A DNA stretch of 64,000 nucleotides from Candidatus Omnitrophota bacterium (GCA_903908245.1 CAIVRE010000024.1:9676-73675), one strand, 5' to 3'; positions 1 through 9,000 are shown, numbered from the stretch's first letter. Numbers are program-made.

Positions 1-3000
1 GGAATGAATCTTATAAAGTTGCCGACAGTCGTGTCTGAAAAACGGTCCGCAGGCAGGGCAGGGTTTTTTCTTTTTCTGATCATGGCCTTCGGTTTCGCCG
101 TCCGGATCTTTCATCTGGGGCATAAGGAGCTTTGGTGTGATGAGGTCAGCAGCGTTACCCTCGCCCGGAATGCGTATAATATTTTCAGTGCCCTTTCCTA
201 TAAGCCGTTGTATTTCCTGTTCCTGAAGTTCTGGATATATTTCTTTGGTATGGCGGAATTTGCCGTCAGGCTTCCTTCGGTCATATTCGGTACGGCCACA
301 ATATTCGTTATATACAAATTGGGGCAGGAGATCTCCGGCAGAAAAGCCGGATTGATCGCCGCGTTCCTTTTGTCCATTTCCTGTTTTCACATTTATCAAT
401 CGCAACAGGCGCGTCATTTTACCTTGATGGTCTTGTTGATCTGCCTGTCATATTTGTGTTTTATTCGTGCGCTTAAGGGGAAAGATGCGGTTTTGAACCG
501 TTGGCTTAACGGCGGGGTTAACGTCCTTCTTGTTTTTATGCATCCTTATGCCCTGGCGGGTGTTCTTGTTCAGCCTTTTTTTGTCTATGGTTTCCTGGAA
601 CGCAAAGTCAAACTGGAATGGGTCAGGGTCCATATTGTCATGGCCGTGGCCGTTGCCCTCTGGCTCCTGTTCTCCGAGAAAGGGGAGATGTATTACAATA
701 CTTTGTGGATAACCGGGCCCGGCTGGGAGGCGATACCGGAGGTTTTTCAGACGTTCTCTTATGGCGGGTTGAGATACGGGCTTTGGGATTATAAGGTTAT
801 TTTTGGGTCGCTACTGCCGGTGAATATCCTTTTCTTGTTGTATTGTTTCTTTCTTGTCAGAGGTGTTAACTTCGGTTTAAGGATGCGAGATCGTTCAAGG
901 CTGATGATCCTGATGCTCGGGTGGCTCCTTTTGCCTATGGCCGGTGCCCTGCTTGTTTCCATTGTTCGTCCTGTTTTTCTGGTGAAACATTTGATCATTT
1001 CACTGCCGGCGTTCTGTTTGATCGTTGCTTTGGGGATCGCATCCCTGAGGTCTTTTCAGTCGATCATGTTTTTATTATCGATCGTATTCCTTTTGAATAT
1101 TTATCCGCTCATGAATATTTATGCACAGGATGCGCATATTCATTGGAGAGAGAATGTGTTGTTCCTGAAAGATAATATCAGGGAGGGGGATGCTGTTGTC
1201 GTTTCTACGGGGACTGACCTGCTGCCGTTCCTTTATTATTTTGGGGATACACCGGGAAAAGCTCTTTATGGTTATGATAAATATTTTTATTGCCGGAAAA
1301 GTGACGGCACGTGTTCTCCTTTTATTTATGAAACCTCGCATTTAATTATCGGGATCCCCCATGATATGGGGCAGGGGCCTGAGGCAATAAGGCGCATCGC
1401 CCGGGAGAGGCTCGATGCGTTAATGAGCCGTAAGCCGATGGTCATCTGGTTGATGGCGGGGCGTTGGACGGGGCAGTCGAGGGAGCAGGATTTTGCCGCT
1501 TATTTGGGCCGTTCCTACAGGCTGGTATTTAAAAAAGCAGGATCGGGTGTTACTACCTACAAGTTTGAGAAGATATGAGGCTGAAGAATAAGCTGCAGGC
1601 GTTGCGTTCATTGTGTAAAGTCAGGCTCCTGGGGCAAAGAGTGCCTTTGGCGGTGCGCTGGCAGTTGACCAATCGCTGTGTCGCCAGGTGCAAGTATTGT
1701 GCTGTCTGGCAAACGCCCGAGCAGGAAATGTCGATCGATCAGATCACGGCTATCCTCGACGAAATGGCGGCGATGGGGACGCAGACCATTTCTTTCAGCG
1801 GCGGGGAGCCGATGCTTCGGGAAGATATCGGGCTGATCCTGGAAGAAACGGCCGGGAGAGGGATCTCGACGGAAATGAATTCGACAGGCGCGGGGATCCC
1901 GGAGAATATCGCCCGGCTAAAGCACCTTGATTTCCTCAAGATCAGCCTTGATGGCCCGCAAGAGGTCCATGATGAGGTGAGGGGGAAGGGGTCCTTCAGG
2001 TATGCCATGGCCGCGGCCGAAGCGGCGGGCGCGAACAAGCTCAAGTTCATTTTTTCGACGACATTGACAAGGTTTAATATTAAAGAGGTCGATTTTCTTC
2101 TGGGAACGGCAAAGAAATTCAATACTCTTGTGGCGTTCCAGCCGCTTAAAAGCCTGTATCGCGGCGTCAAGGATGTCGGCGCCCTGGCTCCGCGCAAGGA
2201 AGATTATGCAGCGGCCATTCAAAAGCTGATCGATCGCAAGAAGAAGGGGGATCCGCATTTGAGGAATTCCCTGATAGGGTTGCGGCATATTTCCCGTTGG
2301 CCGGATTATCCGCGCCTGGAGTGCTGGGCGGGGCAGATCTTTTGTATCCTTAATACGAACGGGGCCCTGATGCCGTGCGACCGGATCGCGTATAATTCTC
2401 AATTGCCCAATTGCCTGGATTCGGGGTTCAGGAAGGCTTTTTTGTCCCTTCCTGAGCCTTGTTGCGGCGGGTGTGGATTTTGCGGAGTGCTTGAACTCAA
2501 TTTTCTGATGTCGTTCCGCCTGGGCACGCTTGAGAGTATTTATAATATCATCAAATGATGGGCCATGGTTTATGTGGAATTTAAGGAAAACAGCCAATCG
2601 ATTCCGCCTGTTGAATGCGTATCTTGGAGGCGCCGCTTCTTTTTCAGGGATGCCGGCCGCCTTGTTCATTGAAATGACCAACAGGTGCAATATCAATTGC
2701 ATTACCTGCCCGAGGGCAGAGCTCAATGCCCGTCCGCAGGACATGTCATTCGGATTGTTCAAGCGCATTGTTGATGAGGCAAGGCCATATGCCGAGTTCG
2801 TTGATTTTTCTTTTCGTGGCGAATCGTTATTGAACGATAATATCTTTCAGATGATCGGGTACGCGAAGAGGGCGGGGATGCTTACCAGTTTGCCGACCAA
2901 CGGGCTGTTGTTAAGTGAGGCCAATTGCGCGGCATTGCTTGGCGCCGGGCTTGATCTTCTGACCGTCAGTATCGATGCGTTCTCGGAGGGGACTTACAGC

Positions 3001-6000: not shown

Positions 6001-9000
6001 CCAATGCGCTCAAGCTTTCCAGGGAGCAGGCATCGGCGGTCATCCGGCAATTCGCGCCCGATATCATCGGGTTCCGGGCCGACACATACTGGTTCCACCG
6101 GGTCGTGGAGTGGGCGTCTTATTTCAAGGCGCACCTCAAGGCCAGGATCATCGTCGGAGGGCCAAATATCGCTTTGTATCCGAAGGAGTCGTTGTCGTAT
6201 GGCTGCTTTGATTACGGCTTGTCCGGTGAGGCGAATGGATCTTTGCCCGCGTTGTTGGCTTGCCTTGAGGGTGGAACAAGCCCCGGGGCGGTCGAGGGCC
6301 TGGTGTACAGGTCCGGAGCGAATATTGTTGTTAACCCTCCGTCGGAACAGGTGACCGGCTTTGACGATTATCCGTTTCCCGCCAGGCATTTGCTGCCGAA
6401 CCATCTTTACAGCTCTTTTACATCCCAGAGGAAGAATTTTTCCATTGTCCTGACCAGTATCGGCTGCCCTTACGAATGCAATTTCTGCGCGATCAGCGGC
6501 CGGAATTTTCGGCACAGGTCGGCGGGCAATGTTGCCGACGAGATCGAGCGGTGTTACAAGGACCAGGATATCCGCGAGATCGATTTTTTCTCCGCATCGT
6601 TCTTTTTTAACAGGCCGTTCGTGGTGGAATTGTGCGGGGAATTGATCAAAAGGAAGATCAGGGTCGAATGGTCATGCCGGAGCCGTGTCGACCAGGTCGA
6701 TCAGGGGATCCTTAAGCAGGCGTATCAGGCCGGATGCCGGAAGATCTATTACGGGATCGAATCCTCTTCGCCCGATGTCTTGAGCCGGACGTCCAAAGGG
6801 ATCAACGTTGAGCAGGTCAGGGAGGCGGTCCGATGGACGCGGGAAGCGAAGATCGGCGCTTTGGGGTTTTTTATGGTCGGGAATTCCGGGGATACAAGGG
6901 AAAGCATCCTTGCCACGATCGATTTCGCGAAGGGGCTGGAACTCGATTACGTTCAGGTTTGCCGGACGATCGCCAAGCCGGATACGCAATTGAACAGCCT
7001 TGTTATTTCTTGTACCGGTAAAGACCCATGGAGAGAGTATGTCCGGGATGGCAATGAACGCAGGGACTTTCCGTCTCCCTGGACCTCCTTGTCGAGGGAG
7101 GAGCTCGACGGGTATGTGGACCGCTTCTACAGGGAATTTTATTTTCGCCCGTCGTATATTGTCAGGAGGATCCTGAAGATCCGGTCATTGGAGGAGTTGT
7201 TCCGGTATGTCAGGGTGGGATTGCGCTGGGTTCTGGCCGGTAAAGAACGAGGCAGAGGATAATGCGTTTGAACAAGATCGCGGACGGAGCATCCGTAGTA
7301 ATAACCCTTGGCTTCCTGTTCTTTTTATTTTCAACAGTGCAGTGGCCGGAAATGGGACGCGTCCTTAAAGGGATGGATGCGTTCTATTTTGTGTTGGCAG
7401 TTTTGGTCGCGTTATTTTCCAGCGCCTGGATCGGGGCCGGGAGATTCCGGATGATCATTAAAGTCCTGGGCGGGGAGATATCTTTTGCCGAAGCGTTTCG
7501 GGTCAAATTGGGCAGTCAGCCGTTGAATTTATTGCCATCAGGGCAGGCGGACCTTTTATCCCAGGTGGTTTATTTAAAAAGGAACAGCAGGTTTTCTTAT
7601 ATATCCGGCCTTTATTATGTTGTATTGGCCCTTGTTTCCAAAGTCCTGGCATTATTGATCCCTGTGGCTGTCATGTTATTGTTCTTTTGGCCTCCGGGAT
7701 ATCTTCCGGCTTTGGAGCGTTTTAAGCCCGTGCTGTGGGCCTGTTGCGCGGCGGGCATGGTCCCTGTTTTGATCTGGGTATTGATAAGGCTCAAGAGTTT
7801 CCGGAGAGCCGTTCTTTCCTGGATCCCCGTAGCCGATACGGGGTGGGCATCGGAAGTGCGCAAAGCCGTTGATGTGTATGGCGGGATCAGCAGCGGTCCA
7901 ATGGCAGGTCTTCTGCTTTATTCCATGGCATTCCAGTATTCCCAGTTCCTTGTTTTTTATTGGCTGGCCAGGAGCCTGGGGCTTGGGATATCTTTATTCG
8001 CTGTTGTCATGTTCCTGCCGCTGGTGGTCATTCTTTCCAATATCCCTGTTACAGTGGGAGGGTTCGGATTGCGCGAGTCTTTGATCGTGCTCTTTTTTGC
8101 CTCATACGGGGGGAAAGAAGCGGCCCTGGCTCTTGGGGTCCTGTTCTCTTTCGCTGAATATATTGTCCCGGCATTTTTCGGGCTGTTCTTTCTCAGGCCG
8201 TATCTGAAGAAATTATTTTAGGCCTGTGATGAGGAGCGGCGGAGGCGATTGCCGAGGACAAGCTGGAAATAATCCAGGATAACGCTCACGGTCAGCTTGC
8301 TTTTTCCGTACCGGCGCGGCCGGAAGGGATAGGGCAGTTCCTGGAACTTCGGGGGAACGGGGGAGGACAGGAGCAGGTCGAGAAGGATCTTGAACCCTTT
8401 TCCGCTGAGCTGTCCGACGGACCGGTCGAAGAAGTCTTTGCGGACAAGAAAGAACCCGCTCAAGGGGTCCTTGACCTTGAGCCCGGTGATCATTTGAGTG
8501 AACCGCGCGGCGACAGCGCTTGTTGCAACGCGGCCCGAAGTCCATCCTGCCATGCCGTTTCCGGTGACATACCGGCTTCCGATCGCAATATCCAGGGATC
8601 CTTCCTTGATGGCTTTGAGCATCAGGGGAAGAAGGCGTTCGTCATGCTGAAGGTCCGCATCCATGACCGCGCAAAAGGGGGCTTCGGATAATTGCATCCC
8701 TTCAATGCAGGCGGAAGACAGGCCGCGGCGGCCGATGCGCTGATGGCATCGGACCCGGGGATCCTTGAGGCTTTGGTCCCTGATGAGCCCGGCAGTCCCG
8801 TCCGGCGAATCATCATCCACGCAAATGACTTCCCAGTCGAGGCCGTTCAGCGCGGCATGCAGTTTTTCCAGAAGAGGCAGGATATTGTGTTTTTCCTGAT
8901 AGGTCGGGATAATGACAGACAGTTCAACGGCCATGGGTCCTTAGGGGCATCGTGATGACCGGTTGGACAGGAGCCCCAGGATCGCCCACCAGATCAGGCT

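What the first reader, a model, noticed from the sequence alone, without database searches (positions are those of the whole stretch)
1575..7262. Radical-SAM-dense tailoring cassette with no candidate precursor peptide
Within 5.7 kb there are five tightly packed genes: two SPASM/twitch-type radical SAM enzymes that are paralogues (1575 and 4814), a third SPASM-type radical SAM enzyme, a class-B (B12) radical SAM enzyme and an atypical DegT aminotransferase. SPASM enzymes are best known from RiPP and cofactor pathways. Here every inter-gene gap is under 35 bp, which leaves no room for a precursor peptide. The flanking genes are a GT-C transferase, a flippase-like protein, a polyprenol-P GT2 and a Wzy_C ligase. 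The substrate is therefore most plausibly a nucleotide-sugar, a lipid-linked glycan or a membrane lipid. Possible chemistries include radical epimerisation, deoxygenation or C-C rearrangement on sugars, C-methylation, or ether or ring formation on lipids as done by GrsA/B-type SPASM enzymes. A triple SPASM plus B12-radical-SAM set in a glycan context is not a described pathway.
Basis: partly seen in the sequence, partly recalled or inferred. Interest (0 to 1): 0.72.

Follow-up and report, generated by a model that had tools for sequence, protein, structure and literature searches.

The report
Radical-SAM sugar-tailoring cassette feeding GT-C
This is a block of four radical-SAM enzymes and a membrane-anchored aminotransferase set inside a lipid-carrier glycosylation system of an uncultured, probably Omnitrophota, bacterium; it most likely remodels a carrier-lipid-linked sugar before that sugar is attached to a cell-surface glycan, a pathway type I did not find described.

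Summary
Positions 1575-7262 hold five co-directional genes separated by -4 to 30 nt. They encode two paralogous twitch-type radical SAM (rSAM) enzymes, a third twitch/SPASM rSAM, a DegT aminotransferase with a hydrophobic helical insertion, and a B12-binding rSAM. The flanks encode a GT-C, a flippase-like protein, a polyprenyl-phosphate-type GT2 and a Wzy_C protein.

No precursor peptide, RRE domain or cofactor-maturase orthology was found.

Three gene fusions in relatives tie the parts together: B12-rSAM+GT2 (17 of 68 loci), DegT+twitch rSAM (both orders), and flippase-like+methyltransferase. Related loci, mainly from Omnitrophota, Elusimicrobiota, Planctomycetota and Myxococcota, are full of GT-C, GT2, Wzy_C and other glycan genes.

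On the source contig the cassette continues upstream with four more rSAM genes, a Wzm/Wzt-like ABC exporter and WbqC.

Best reading: an Arn/Gtr-like three-component glycosylation system in which rSAM enzymes tailor a polyprenyl-phosphate-linked sugar. The proposed steps are oxidation plus transamination, and B12-dependent C-methylation or rearrangement. The sugar is then flipped and transferred by the GT-C. The actual chemistry is inferred, not shown.

Verdict: a new variant of a known kind, of moderately high interest.

The parts
4..1578 (+). GT-C fold membrane glycosyltransferase (PMT_2 family, about 10 or more hydrophobic segments). Proposed periplasmic transferase that uses the tailored polyprenyl-phosphate sugar.
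   Evidence: Pfam PMT_2 scores 48 bits against a cut-off of 26. PMT_2-type GT-C genes recur in 17 of 68 related loci, and up to 4-5 occur per locus beside the DegT-rSAM fusions. No sequence match in the PDB.
1575..2558 (+). Twitch-type radical SAM enzyme 'A' (327 aa). It is the most conserved partner of the B12-rSAM.
   Evidence: It has CX3CX2C plus invariant C250-x12-G263-x4-C268...C297-x2-C300(-x2-C303). The AF2 model has pLDDT 90, and Foldseek finds SkfB, PqqE, SuiB, BlsE (TM 0.70/0.70) and anSME, with no RRE domain. Orthologues at 43-69% identity sit next to the B12-rSAM in at least 9 loci.
2572..3558 (+). Twitch/SPASM radical SAM enzyme 'B' (328 aa).
   Evidence: Pfam SPASM 55 bits plus Radical_SAM 53 bits. 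The best PDB sequence match is the auxiliary-cluster domain of BtrN (E 4e-13). Four C-terminal Cys are conserved in 4 homologues. It is rare in related loci.
3572..4783 (+). DegT-family PLP aminotransferase with a hydrophobic helical-hairpin insertion (about residues 215-265 of 403). Probably monotopic membrane-associated.
   Evidence: The PLP lysine K183 is invariant and the EDCAHALG motif is present. A Kyte-Doolittle TM-like segment spans 228-256. The AF2 model has pLDDT 92 and the full sugar-aminotransferase fold (TM about 0.78 to ArnB/PerA/WbpE) plus extra helices 216-264. Relatives are fused to a twitch rSAM.
4814..5821 (+). Twitch-type radical SAM enzyme 'C' (335 aa), a paralogue of A. 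Proposed partner of the aminotransferase.
   Evidence: 31% identical to A. It keeps the four auxiliary Cys C250, C268, C297 and C300. The rSAM half of the fusion protein P0421 (DegT then rSAM, the same order as in the window) is 34% identical over its full length (E 9e-56).
5844..7262 (+). Class B (B12-binding) radical SAM enzyme (472 aa). HpnJ-like in architecture, but not an HpnJ orthologue.
   Evidence: Pfam B12-binding 56 bits plus Radical_SAM 69 bits. The best NCBIfam model is HpnJ, matched end to end at 148 bits against a cut-off of 578. The C-terminal 107 aa hit only HpnJ (E 1.6e-5). The best PDB match is the AprD4 rSAM domain. In 17 of 68 loci it is fused to GT2, and in 11 more it lies next to one.
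7262..8221 (+). Flippase-like polytopic membrane protein (LPG_synthase_TM / AglD / HpnL superfamily).
   Evidence: Pfam 102 bits; TIGR00374 flippase-like domain 37 bits. Flippase-like genes occur in 15 of 68 loci. They are fused to a SAM methyltransferase in L036 and L074; three more relatives are long enough to be fused (479-537 aa).
8218..8934 (-). Soluble GT2 of the polyprenyl-phosphate sugar synthase class (DPM1/ArnC/PpgS/AglJ-like).
   Evidence: Pfam Glycos_transf_2 105 bits. The best NCBIfam models are PgfS, AglJ, ArnC, PpgS and Dol-P-hexose transferase, all below their cut-offs. The homologous GT2 domain fused to the B12-rSAM matches PpgS over its full length.
8941..10152 (-). Wzy_C family membrane protein (O-antigen ligase or polymerase-like). 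It belongs to the surrounding glycan locus.
   Evidence: Pfam Wzy_C 57 bits. Wzy_C genes occur in 14 of 68 related loci.

Best explanation
The cassette is the tailoring module of a three-component, polyprenyl-phosphate-dependent glycosylation system, comparable in logic to ArnC/ArnEF/ArnT, GtrA/B/C or PpgS.

Proposed sequence of events (all steps inferred):
1. The GT2 (8218-8934) loads a common sugar from a nucleotide donor onto polyprenyl phosphate at the cytoplasmic face of the membrane.
2. The sugar is remodelled while held at the membrane. A twitch rSAM, most likely enzyme C and possibly B, abstracts a carbinol hydrogen and oxidises a hydroxyl group to a ketone, as BtrN does. The membrane-anchored DegT then transaminates the ketone to an amine.
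3. The B12-rSAM, working with its constant partner twitch rSAM A, makes a further carbon-centred change. Most likely this is C-methylation, as by GenD1 or MoeK5. Alternatively it is a dehydration or skeletal rearrangement, as by AprD4 or HpnJ.
4. The flippase-like protein moves the product across the membrane. The GT-C (4-1578) transfers it to a periplasmic acceptor, probably an LPS or O-antigen-type glycan.

Shown here: domain content, motifs, folds, fusions and neighbourhood recurrence. Inferred: the lipid-linked stage, the order of the steps, and every chemical reaction.
For: (1) Three gene fusions in relatives link the parts.
- B12-rSAM+GT2: many proteins of 730-750 aa, found in 17 of 68 loci with 11 more adjacent; domains confirmed.
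- DegT-with-insertion + twitch rSAM, in both orders. Each half of P0421 is 34% identical over its full length to the window's DegT or to rSAM C; the DegT half of P0508 is 34% identical to the window's DegT.
- Flippase-like TM domain + class I methyltransferase.

(2) The fused GT2 domain matches polyprenyl-phosphate sugar synthases best: PpgS (full length), AglJ, PgfS, Dol-P-hexose transferase and ArnC.

(3) The families found most often within 10 kb of the B12-rSAM in the 68 loci (of 80 scanned) where it was called are twitch rSAM (26 of 68), GT2, flippase-like (15), PMT_2 GT-C (17), Wzy_C (14), DegT (9), AsnB-like and methyltransferases.

(4) Loci that encode the DegT-rSAM fusions hold up to 4-5 PMT_2 GT-C genes, plus DUF2079, GT2, a GT9 heptosyltransferase and B12-rSAMs.

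(5) The DegT has a conserved hydrophobic helical insertion on an otherwise normal sugar-aminotransferase fold. In other phyla its distant relatives are translationally coupled to a class-B-like rSAM. They sit beside DedA/VTT lipid-transporter genes, a PMT_2 gene, or a hopanoid locus.

(6) The source contig shows a Wzm/Wzt-like ABC exporter, WbqC, another GT2 and four more rSAM genes immediately upstream. The rest of the window is LPS/glycan biosynthesis: LptD, GT9, GT4s, nucleotide-sugar enzymes, and a second B12-rSAM overlapping a GT2.

(7) All three non-B12 rSAMs have a single-auxiliary-cluster (twitch) Cys pattern, as in BtrN.

(8) Tailoring of a sugar at the lipid-linked stage in three-component systems has precedent (PMC11127046). 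My own knowledge adds ArnD, DprE1/E2, and MoeK5, a B12-rSAM that methylates a lipid-linked sugar.
Against: - No enzyme here is an orthologue of a characterised enzyme. Every NCBIfam score is far below its cut-off, so each reaction is an analogy.
- To my knowledge (not tested here), characterised DegT enzymes act on NDP-sugars or inososes, not on lipid-linked sugars.
- A B12-rSAM+GT2 fusion is equally compatible with the rSAM acting on the NDP-sugar before transfer.
- The flippase-like protein is not of the GtrA or ArnE/F type, and flippase activity of this family is itself only partly established.
- The five-gene block is not conserved as a unit. Only the core of B12-rSAM + GT2 + twitch rSAM A recurs widely.
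- Neighbourhood counts come from a crude ORF caller, from loci chosen through the B12-rSAM, and have no background control.
- The taxonomic assignment rests only on best hits (66-72% identity to Omnitrophota MAG proteins).
Confidence: 0.6

Rival explanations
1. Tailoring happens in the cytosol at the nucleotide-sugar level. The rSAM enzymes and DegT convert an NDP-sugar into a rare amino or branched NDP-sugar. Only then does the GT2 load it onto polyprenyl phosphate, or another GT uses it directly.
For: By sequence and fold the DegT is a sugar aminotransferase, closest to NDP-sugar enzymes. Known sugar-modifying rSAMs such as DesII, BlsE, viperin and AprD4 act on soluble substrates and appear among the structural neighbours. 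The window carries many nucleotide-sugar enzymes downstream. A B12-rSAM+GT2 fusion could channel an NDP-sugar product into the GT2.
Against: The DegT has a conserved hydrophobic hairpin. A methyltransferase is fused to a polytopic flippase-like domain in relatives. DegT relatives associate with DedA lipid transporters, and in one case a hopanoid locus. The minimal Elusimicrobiota module (B12-GT2, rSAM A, flippase-MTase, two GT-C genes) has no nucleotide-sugar gene beside it.
Confidence: 0.2
2. The core triad of GT2 + HpnJ-like B12-rSAM + HpnL-like membrane protein makes a modified head group on a membrane lipid. An example would be ring contraction of a glycoside to a cyclitol ether, as proposed for HpnI/HpnJ in hopanoids and Cds in calditol lipids, followed by amination. 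On this reading the product is an end-product lipid, not a glycosyl donor.
For: HpnJ is the best-scoring NCBIfam model. It is matched end to end over the same length of 472 aa, and it is the only model hit by the C-terminal domain. HpnL belongs to the same LPG_synthase_TM/AglD superfamily as the flippase-like protein (PMC12324291). HpnI is a GT2. One distant DegT-rSAM pair lies beside SHC and a genuine HpnH. HpnJ and Cds ring contraction is described in PMC13459092.
Against: The HpnJ score is 148 bits against a cut-off of 578. BchE and the ladderane model score nearly as well. The flippase-like protein does not hit the HpnL model. No SHC or Hpn gene was found among the window ORFs scanned. The constant presence of GT-C transferases, which need an activated glycosyl phosphate donor, argues for a donor rather than an end-product; a carbocycle would not be transferable by the usual mechanism. 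The fused GT2 resembles polyprenyl-phosphate synthases more than HpnB.
Confidence: 0.12
3. The DegT and its rSAM partner work in the DesI/DesII direction: transamination first, then radical deamination. The result would be a deoxy-keto sugar (deoxygenation) rather than an amino sugar.
For: The aminotransferase + rSAM pairing is also the DesI/DesII arrangement. DesI is among the better NCBIfam hits for the DegT family. DesII appears among the structural neighbours of rSAM A.
Against: To my knowledge DesII has no auxiliary cluster, whereas these rSAMs keep a BtrN-like four-Cys twitch site. DesII ranks low (TM 0.54) compared with BlsE, SkfB and anSME. No 4,6-dehydratase, which would supply the 4-keto substrate, lies within the cassette.
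Confidence: 0.05
4. A RiPP or cofactor-maturation cassette whose precursor or partner genes lie elsewhere.
For: SPASM/twitch rSAMs are best known from peptide and cofactor pathways. The top sequence and fold neighbours include SkfB, PqqE, SuiB, CteB and anSME.
Against: There is no free-standing small ORF. The only small gene, a Zn_ribbon_8 ORF, is absent from all 80 related loci. There is no RRE domain. Every maturase model scores far below its cut-off. The partner families in the 68 loci with a called B12-rSAM are glycan enzymes, and the fusions are to GT2 and DegT.
Confidence: 0.02

Closest known systems
Three-component polyprenyl-phosphate glycosylation systems (GtrA/B/C; ArnC/ArnEF/ArnT; PpgS-Rv3632-GT-C; pentofuranose systems of PMC11127046)
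   Same: A DPM1/ArnC-class GT2, a membrane translocation component and a GT-C transferase are encoded together. Tailoring of the sugar while it is on the lipid carrier has precedent (ArnD, the DprE1/E2-type epimerase). The Arn pathway also uses a DegT aminotransferase to make a cationic sugar.
   Different: The tailoring enzymes are four radical SAM proteins, one of them B12-dependent, instead of NAD/FAD enzymes. There is no ArnA or ArnD. The translocation candidate is an LPG_synthase_TM/AglD-type protein, not GtrA or ArnE/F. The DegT carries a membrane hairpin. The acceptor is unknown.
BtrN / BtrS (2-deoxystreptamine pathway)
   Same: A twitch rSAM with one auxiliary [4Fe-4S] cluster is paired with a DegT-family aminotransferase, giving alcohol to ketone to amine. 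BtrN is the best solved-structure match for the C-terminal domain of the 2572-3558 protein.
   Different: The BtrN similarity is confined to the auxiliary domain. The substrate there is a soluble aminocyclitol. Here the pair is fused in some relatives and the aminotransferase has a hydrophobic insertion.
HpnI / HpnJ / (HpnK) / HpnL of hopanoid head-group biosynthesis; calditol synthase Cds
   Same: A GT2, a class B rSAM with HpnJ-like architecture (472 aa, end-to-end match) and an LPG_synthase_TM-family membrane protein are encoded together. Radical remodelling of a lipid-attached sugar is the proposed chemistry (PMC13459092, PMC12324291).
   Different: The score is far below the HpnJ cut-off, and there is no SHC, HpnH or HpnK. 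The GT2 resembles polyprenyl-phosphate synthases. GT-C transferases are present. HpnJ chemistry itself has not been reconstituted.
B12-dependent rSAM sugar C-methyltransferases GenK/GenD1 (gentamicin) and MoeK5 (moenomycin); garosamine logic GenD2-GenS2-GenN-GenD1
   Same: On my own knowledge, this is the same combination of steps on one sugar: oxidation, DegT-type transamination, (N-)methylation and B12-rSAM C-methylation. MoeK5 acts on a lipid-linked sugar. AsnB-like amidotransferases accompany both (family c7).
   Different: No detectable orthology. Those are antibiotic pathways of actinomycetes that use an NAD-dependent oxidation step. Methyl transfer by the enzyme here is untested.
AprD4 (radical SAM diol dehydratase, apramycin)
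   Same: It is the best solved-structure sequence match for the rSAM domain of the 5844-7262 protein (E 4e-22). Its product is a keto-deoxy sugar that could feed an aminotransferase.
   Different: On my own knowledge, AprD4 does not use cobalamin. The window protein has a well-scoring B12-binding domain. The match covers only residues 176-387.

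Membership tests
RiPP / SPASM peptide-maturase system | A precursor peptide gene adjacent to, or co-varying with, the maturase | tested here: not met
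   Gaps between the genes are -4 to 30 nt. Almost all ORFs of 20 aa or more in 1-10.7 kb lie inside larger genes. The Zn_ribbon_8 ORF at 10253-10531 has no counterpart in the 80 related loci.
RiPP / SPASM peptide-maturase system | An N-terminal peptide-recognition (RRE/PqqD-like) domain on the maturase | tested here: not met
   In the AF2 model of rSAM A the rSAM barrel begins at about residue 26, after a single helix. The protein is 327 aa, against 383-440 aa for SkfB, SuiB and CteB.
Known cofactor maturases (PqqE, NirJ, AhbC/D, MftC, MoaA) | A score at or above the NCBIfam equivalog cut-off | tested here: not met
   The best scores are 71-103 bits against cut-offs of 265-650. No partner genes (pqqA-D, nir, ahb, mft) were found among the window ORFs scanned.
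Twitch/SPASM subclass of radical SAM enzymes | CX3CX2C plus a C-terminal CX9-15GX4C...CX2C auxiliary-cluster motif | tested here: met
   rSAM A family: C35/C39/C42 and C250-x12-G263-x4-C268...C297-x2-C300 are invariant, and rSAM C keeps these. rSAM B: C230-x12-G243-x4-C248...C293-x2-C296, with Pfam SPASM at 55 bits.
Twitch/SPASM subclass of radical SAM enzymes | A full SPASM complement of 7-8 Cys for two auxiliary clusters | tested here: not met
   Only 4 auxiliary Cys are conserved in C and B, and 5-6 in A. Cluster content itself cannot be tested with these tools.
Class B (cobalamin-dependent) radical SAM enzymes | An N-terminal B12-binding Rossmann domain followed by the rSAM core | tested here: met
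   PF02310 scores 56.4 bits (cut-off 32.1) at residues 30-137. PF04055 scores 69 bits at residues 204-362.
Class B (cobalamin-dependent) radical SAM enzymes | Cobalamin binding and methyl transfer (SAH formed) | not testable with these tools
   This needs reconstitution. The closest models (HpnJ, BchE, ladderane, BzaD, AprD4) are non-methylases or of unknown function.
HpnJ (TIGR03471) | A score at or above the equivalog cut-off of 577.6 bits | tested here: not met
   148 bits, although the match is end to end (31-461 against 34-462 of 472) and the C-terminal domain hits only HpnJ.
HpnJ (TIGR03471) | Hopanoid genomic context (SHC, HpnH, HpnI, HpnK) | tested here: not met
   None was found among the window ORFs scanned or in the upstream genes of the source contig.
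DegT/DnrJ/EryC1/StrS sugar aminotransferases | The fold-type I sugar-aminotransferase fold with a catalytic PLP lysine | tested here: met
   K183 is invariant within the SFxxxKP motif. Foldseek gives TM 0.73-0.79 to ArnB, PerA, WbpE and QdtB. Pfam scores 203 bits. The extra hydrophobic helices at 216-264 are not part of the family.
Three-component polyprenyl-phosphate glycosylation system | A GT2 of the polyprenyl-phosphate sugar synthase class | tested here: inconclusive
   The best models are PgfS, AglJ, ArnC, PpgS and Dol-P-hexose transferase, but at 28-49 bits, far below their cut-offs. The fused homologue matches PpgS over its full length at 61 bits.
Three-component polyprenyl-phosphate glycosylation system | A GT-C transferase encoded with the GT2 | tested here: met
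   PMT_2 at 48 bits in 4-1578. The pairing recurs in related loci.
Three-component polyprenyl-phosphate glycosylation system | A small GtrA- or ArnE/F-type flippase | tested here: not met
   None was found. An LPG_synthase_TM 'flippase-like' protein takes that position instead.
Arn (L-Ara4N lipid A modification) pathway | ArnA (dehydrogenase/decarboxylase plus formyltransferase) and ArnD (deformylase) | tested here: not met
   No such domains in the cassette or its flanks. Only ArnB-, ArnC- and ArnT-like folds or families are present.

The most novel reading that the evidence does not exclude
Radical SAM enzymes here carry out sugar chemistry directly on a membrane-bound, lipid-linked monosaccharide.

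A twitch rSAM dehydrogenase, fused or coupled to a membrane-anchored DegT, would install an amino group at an unactivated position. This would need neither a nucleotide handle nor a 4,6-dehydratase. An HpnJ-like B12-rSAM, physically fused to the loading GT2, would build a C-branched or ring-rearranged (carbocyclic) sugar.

That would define a widespread, anaerobic, nucleotide-independent route to rare surface sugars. The twitch rSAM family alone has 2,177 representatives at E <= 1e-30 in the library clustered at 50% identity. The lineages involved are Omnitrophota, Elusimicrobiota, Planctomycetota and Myxococcota. It would also give the first tractable homologues for the unsolved HpnJ/Cds-type reaction.
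Probability: 0.25. Interest if true: 0.8.

Novelty: new variant of a known kind. Interest (0 to 1): 0.62.

Why it matters
If this reading is right, several things follow.

- Uncultured anaerobic phyla build part of their surface-glycan diversity with radical chemistry on carrier-lipid-bound sugars. They would not rely on the NAD/FAD-dependent nucleotide-sugar enzymes known from model bacteria.
- The fusions give concrete enzyme pairs that can be expressed and tested. These are B12-rSAM+GT2, DegT+twitch rSAM, and flippase-like+methyltransferase.
- The DegT subfamily with a membrane hairpin would be the first sugar aminotransferase type that works at the membrane.
- The HpnJ-like enzyme gives a second, much larger family in which to study a class B rSAM reaction that has never been reconstituted.
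- The flippase-like partner bears on the unknown function of HpnL/AglD-type proteins.

In practice, rSAM genes inside glycan loci should not be annotated as peptide or cofactor maturases.

Tried and rejected
- tRNA and Rfam scans of the window found nothing.
- The cluster look-up gave no names or accessions for the window's proteins, so taxonomy rests on best hits.
- The sequence search of the GT-C against the PDB found nothing.
- HpnJ orthology was rejected: the score is far below the cut-off and there is no hopanoid context.
- I did not rely on the '7B0D = scyllo-inositol transaminase' label. Foldseek's description shows an archaeal sugar transaminase, and I found no paper characterising its function.
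- The Zn_ribbon_8 ORF (10253-10531) and a 41-aa ORF (10566-10691) were considered as precursor candidates. The first is a standard FmdB-type protein that is absent from all related loci. The second has no features of interest.
- Core-lipid modification of the GrsA/B or Tes type was considered. Only generic rSAM-core similarity to GDGT-MAS/Tes exists, and no lipid-synthesis partners recur.
- Four literature searches for rSAM in O-antigen, undecaprenyl, GT-C, Omnitrophota or hopanoid-DegT contexts returned no description of such a system.
- A search of the 1.84-billion-protein library sized the twitch family and revealed the fusions, but that library carries no annotation.
- One family scan failed on a mis-set coordinate and one script failed on a file name. 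Both were repeated successfully.

Full report
**Observation.** The window was read with a mechanical ORF list and Pfam/NCBIfam scans. Between 1575 and 7262 lie five co-directional genes:
- a radical SAM (rSAM) protein of 327 aa (1575-2558);
- an rSAM+SPASM protein of 328 aa (2572-3558; start codon checked);
- a DegT-family protein of 403 aa (3572-4783; start checked);
- an rSAM protein of 335 aa (4814-5821);
- a B12-binding rSAM protein of 472 aa (5844-7262).

Successive gaps are -4, 13, 13, 30, 22 and -1 nt. The flanks are a PMT_2 GT-C (4-1578), an LPG_synthase_TM 'flippase-like' protein (7262-8221), a GT2 (8218-8934, minus strand) and a Wzy_C protein (8941-10152, minus strand). The first and fourth proteins are 31% identical over their full length (E 1e-51). 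The second shares only the N-terminal cluster region with them. The description is therefore correct.

**Refinements to the description.** Alignments of homologues show that the A/C family keeps CX3CX2C and a C-terminal C-x12-G-x4-C...C-x2-C motif. Four auxiliary Cys are conserved in C and five to six in A. The B family also keeps four, though this rests on four sequences. This is the twitch pattern of one auxiliary cluster, as in BtrN, not the seven- or eight-Cys SPASM pattern.

The AF2 model of A has pLDDT 90. It resembles SkfB, PqqE, SuiB, CteB, anSME and, with the best mutual TM-score (0.70/0.70), the sugar-nucleoside enzyme BlsE. It has no N-terminal peptide-recognition domain.

The DegT is not truncated. 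Its AF2 model (pLDDT 92) has the complete sugar-aminotransferase fold (TM about 0.78 to ArnB, PerA and WbpE). The PLP lysine is invariant. What makes it atypical is an insertion of about 50 residues forming helices 216-264. This insertion is hydrophobic enough to score as a membrane segment and is conserved in the subfamily. Two canonical DegT genes elsewhere in the window match the whole Pfam model.

**Not a peptide or cofactor system.**
- Almost all small ORFs in 1-10.7 kb lie inside larger genes.
- The only small gene nearby, a Zn_ribbon_8/FmdB-type ORF (10253-10531), is absent from all 80 related loci.
- Every NCBIfam model for PqqE, NirJ, AhbC/D, MftC, sactipeptide maturases and the like scores 50-110 bits against cut-offs of 265-850.

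**Where it occurs.** The exact proteins are on metagenome contigs with the same gene order. Homologues of the B12-rSAM at 50-71% identity come mostly from Candidatus Omnitrophota MAGs. A scan of one genome per species returned 80 loci, all MAGs or single-cell genomes. They are from Omnitrophota, Elusimicrobiota, Planctomycetota, Myxococcota and Desulfobacterota. The window is therefore probably from an Omnitrophota genome; this is an inference from best hits only, because the cluster look-up gave no names.

**Neighbourhoods.** I called ORFs in all loci and clustered them. A B12-rSAM was called in 68 of the 80 loci. The families found most often within 10 kb of it in those 68 loci are the window's own families:
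- twitch rSAM: 26 loci, directly adjacent in 19;
- GT2: fused in 17 and adjacent in 11 more;
- PMT_2-type GT-C: 17;
- flippase-like: 15;
- Wzy_C: 14;
- DegT: 9.

More than one B12-rSAM is present in 26 loci. Further recurring families are a second GT2, an AsnB-like amidotransferase, class I methyltransferases, GT4+DUF218, GT-C+TPR and a GDSL-like protein.

The five-gene block itself is not conserved as a unit. The conserved core is B12-rSAM + GT2 + an orthologue of rSAM A (43-69% identity). A compact Elusimicrobiota version consists of a B12-rSAM-GT2 fusion, rSAM A, a flippase-like protein (fused to a methyltransferase in L036) and two GT-C-TPR proteins.

These counts have three limits. They come from a simple greedy ORF caller. 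The loci were chosen through the B12-rSAM. There is no background control.

**Fusions.** Three independent fusions link the parts.
1. Many homologues of the B12-rSAM are proteins of 730-750 aa with a C-terminal GT2. That GT2 domain is best matched by polyprenyl-phosphate sugar synthases: PpgS over its full length, AglJ, PgfS, Dol-P-hexose transferase and ArnC. The window's separate GT2 shows the same list more weakly.
2. A profile search of 1.84 billion representatives found 2,177 members of the A/C twitch family at E <= 1e-30. Two of them are fusions with DegT, in both orders. The DegT half of both fusions is 34% identical to the window's DegT and, in P0421, carries the hydrophobic insertion. 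The rSAM half of P0421 is 34% identical, over its full length, to rSAM C. P0421 has the window's gene order, DegT then rSAM.
3. In L036 and L074 the flippase-like membrane domain is fused to a class I SAM methyltransferase.

The fusion proteins are encoded in loci holding up to four or five PMT_2 GT-C genes, DUF2079, GT2, a GT9 heptosyltransferase and further B12- and twitch-rSAMs.

**Wider context of the cassette.** On the 500-kb source contig, the genes just upstream of window base 1 are two B12-rSAMs, a GT2, two unknowns, an rSAM, a third B12-rSAM, an ABC_tran/ABC2_membrane pair (Wzm/Wzt-like) and WbqC.

Downstream, the window encodes:
- LptD;
- two UDP-Glc/GDP-Man dehydrogenases and three NAD epimerase/dehydratases;
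- a class-B-like rSAM without a B12 domain (30020-31255);
- a GHMP kinase and a nucleotidyltransferase;
- an MsbA-like exporter;
- GT4s and methyltransferases;
- a second B12-rSAM (39817-41283) that overlaps a GT2;
- a carbamoyltransferase and a GT9 heptosyltransferase.

The finding is thus one slice of an LPS/O-antigen-type super-locus with at least ten rSAM genes.

**The DegT subfamily elsewhere.** I looked up six more distant members, at 26-34% identity to the window's DegT. Four are preceded, with a 4-7-nt overlap, by an rSAM of 418-525 aa. That rSAM is a near-full-length homologue (25-27% identity) of the window's B12-rSAM and of none of the other rSAMs. DedA/VTT-domain lipid-transporter genes lie beside three of these pairs. 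One locus adds a GNAT, a methyltransferase and a PMT_2. One lies next to SHC, a genuine HpnH (445 bits) and IspH. A fifth sits between B12-rSAMs and a PMT_2. The sixth lies in an ordinary nucleotide-sugar cluster without an rSAM. The aminotransferase with the hairpin is therefore usually partnered with an rSAM and with membrane-lipid machinery.

**Mechanism (inferred).** The simplest model that uses every part is a three-component polyprenyl-phosphate glycosylation system with an embedded radical tailoring module.
1. The GT2 loads a sugar onto the carrier lipid.
2. A twitch rSAM (C by the fusion evidence; B by its BtrN-like domain) oxidises a hydroxyl group to a ketone.
3. The membrane-anchored DegT transaminates the ketone.
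4. The B12-rSAM, with rSAM A, performs a carbon-centred modification.
5. The flippase-like protein translocates the product.
6. The GT-C transfers it to a periplasmic glycan.

Precedents are three-component systems that tailor the sugar on the lipid (PMC11127046). On my own knowledge they also include ArnD, DprE1/E2, the garosamine steps GenD2-GenS2-GenN-GenD1, and MoeK5, a B12-rSAM that methylates a lipid-linked sugar.

The reaction of the B12-rSAM cannot be assigned. Most characterised class B enzymes are methylases (PMC12931638). The best-matching models here, however, are HpnJ (end to end, and the only hit for the C-terminal domain), BchE, the ladderane enzyme, BzaD and AprD4. Ring contraction as proposed for HpnJ and Cds (PMC13459092) would give a carbocycle that a GT-C could not transfer by the usual mechanism. 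This is why I rank it below methylation or dehydration.

**Rivals.** I considered four alternatives:
- tailoring at the nucleotide-sugar stage (0.2);
- an HpnI/J/L-like head-group pathway that ends in a membrane lipid (0.12). HpnL is of the same superfamily as the flippase-like protein and has no known function (PMC12324291);
- the DesI/DesII direction of the DegT-rSAM pair (0.05);
- a RiPP or cofactor role (0.02).

**Novelty and verdict.** I found no paper describing rSAM enzymes in three-component or O-antigen systems, B12-rSAM-GT2 fusions, or DegT-rSAM fusions. A preprint on Omnitrophota genomes only notes that radical SAM domains co-occur with sugar-metabolism domains in giant proteins. 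The overall kind, a surface-glycan tailoring locus built round a GT2/flippase/GT-C system, is known. The use of a battery of radical SAM enzymes and a membrane-anchored aminotransferase in it appears to be new. I rate it a new variant of a known kind, with interest 0.62. The main caveat is that every reaction is assigned by analogy.

Noticed in passing
window 39817-42841: There is a second B12-binding rSAM (39817-41283, 30% identical to the one at 5844-7262). It overlaps a GT2 (41237-42085) and is followed by a class I methyltransferase (42092-42841). The B12-rSAM/GT2 pairing therefore occurs twice in the window.
   Followed up: partly
window 30020-31255: A 411-aa rSAM without a B12-binding domain. 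It is 26% identical to residues 187-439 of the 5844-7262 protein, including its C-terminal domain, and sits among NAD epimerase/dehydratase genes. It resembles the class-B-like rSAMs coupled to DegT in other phyla.
   Followed up: partly
source contig upstream of window base 1 (no DNA available): The locus continues upstream with three more B12-rSAMs, another rSAM, a GT2, two unknown proteins (303 and 598 aa), a Wzm/Wzt-like ABC exporter pair and WbqC. That makes at least 8 rSAM genes within about 21 kb.
   Followed up: partly
L083, L085, L086, L087 (DegT gene at 8001 or 7001 in each): A three-gene module recurs in other phyla: a class-B-like rSAM, a DegT with the hydrophobic insertion (4-7-nt overlap with the rSAM gene), and a DedA/VTT-domain protein nearby in L083, L085 and L086. 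In L085 it lies beside squalene-hopene cyclase, a genuine HpnH and IspH. This raises the possibility of a radical route to amino-functionalised hopanoids or other lipids.
   Followed up: partly
L036 3853-5292; L074 14985-16598: The LPG_synthase_TM (flippase-like, HpnL/AglD superfamily) domain is fused to a class I SAM methyltransferase. This suggests that the membrane domain presents a lipid-linked substrate to a cytoplasmic enzyme, which may bear on the unknown function of HpnL.
   Followed up: no
L089 8001-10214 (P0421); L091 8001-10205 (P0508): Single polypeptides combine a DegT aminotransferase and a twitch rSAM, in both domain orders. They lie in loci with up to 4-5 PMT_2 GT-C genes, DUF2079 and a GT9 heptosyltransferase.
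   Followed up: yes
window 25596-26749: A short E1_dh (thiamine-diphosphate enzyme) fragment of 205 aa is followed by an overlapping 210-aa ORF with no Pfam hit, between sugar epimerase/dehydratase genes. It may be a split TPP enzyme for a branched-chain sugar, or a frameshift.
   Followed up: no
window 10253-10531: A 92-aa Zn_ribbon_8 (FmdB-type) protein with a Cys/Ser-rich C-terminal tail (SSSAPACSSCPMKESGGCSSA). It is not conserved next to related cassettes.
   Followed up: partly
window 16429-18731: Two adjacent diguanylate cyclase genes (GAF-GGDEF and GGDEF) lie between the glycan regions, preceded by an MFS transporter and an ABC ATPase with a MalK-type OB/TOBE domain.
   Followed up: no
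window 1-64000: Nearly all long ORFs are on the + strand. GC skew is positive in every 2-kb bin (0.05-0.26) and AT skew is mostly negative. This is consistent with a single replichore and leading-strand gene bias.
   Followed up: no
window 46942-50388 and 52807-53949: A carbamoyltransferase (NodU/CmcH type), a GT9 heptosyltransferase and an MGDG-synthase/GT28-like protein. These suggest a carbamoylated glycan and LPS-core assembly in the same region.
   Followed up: no
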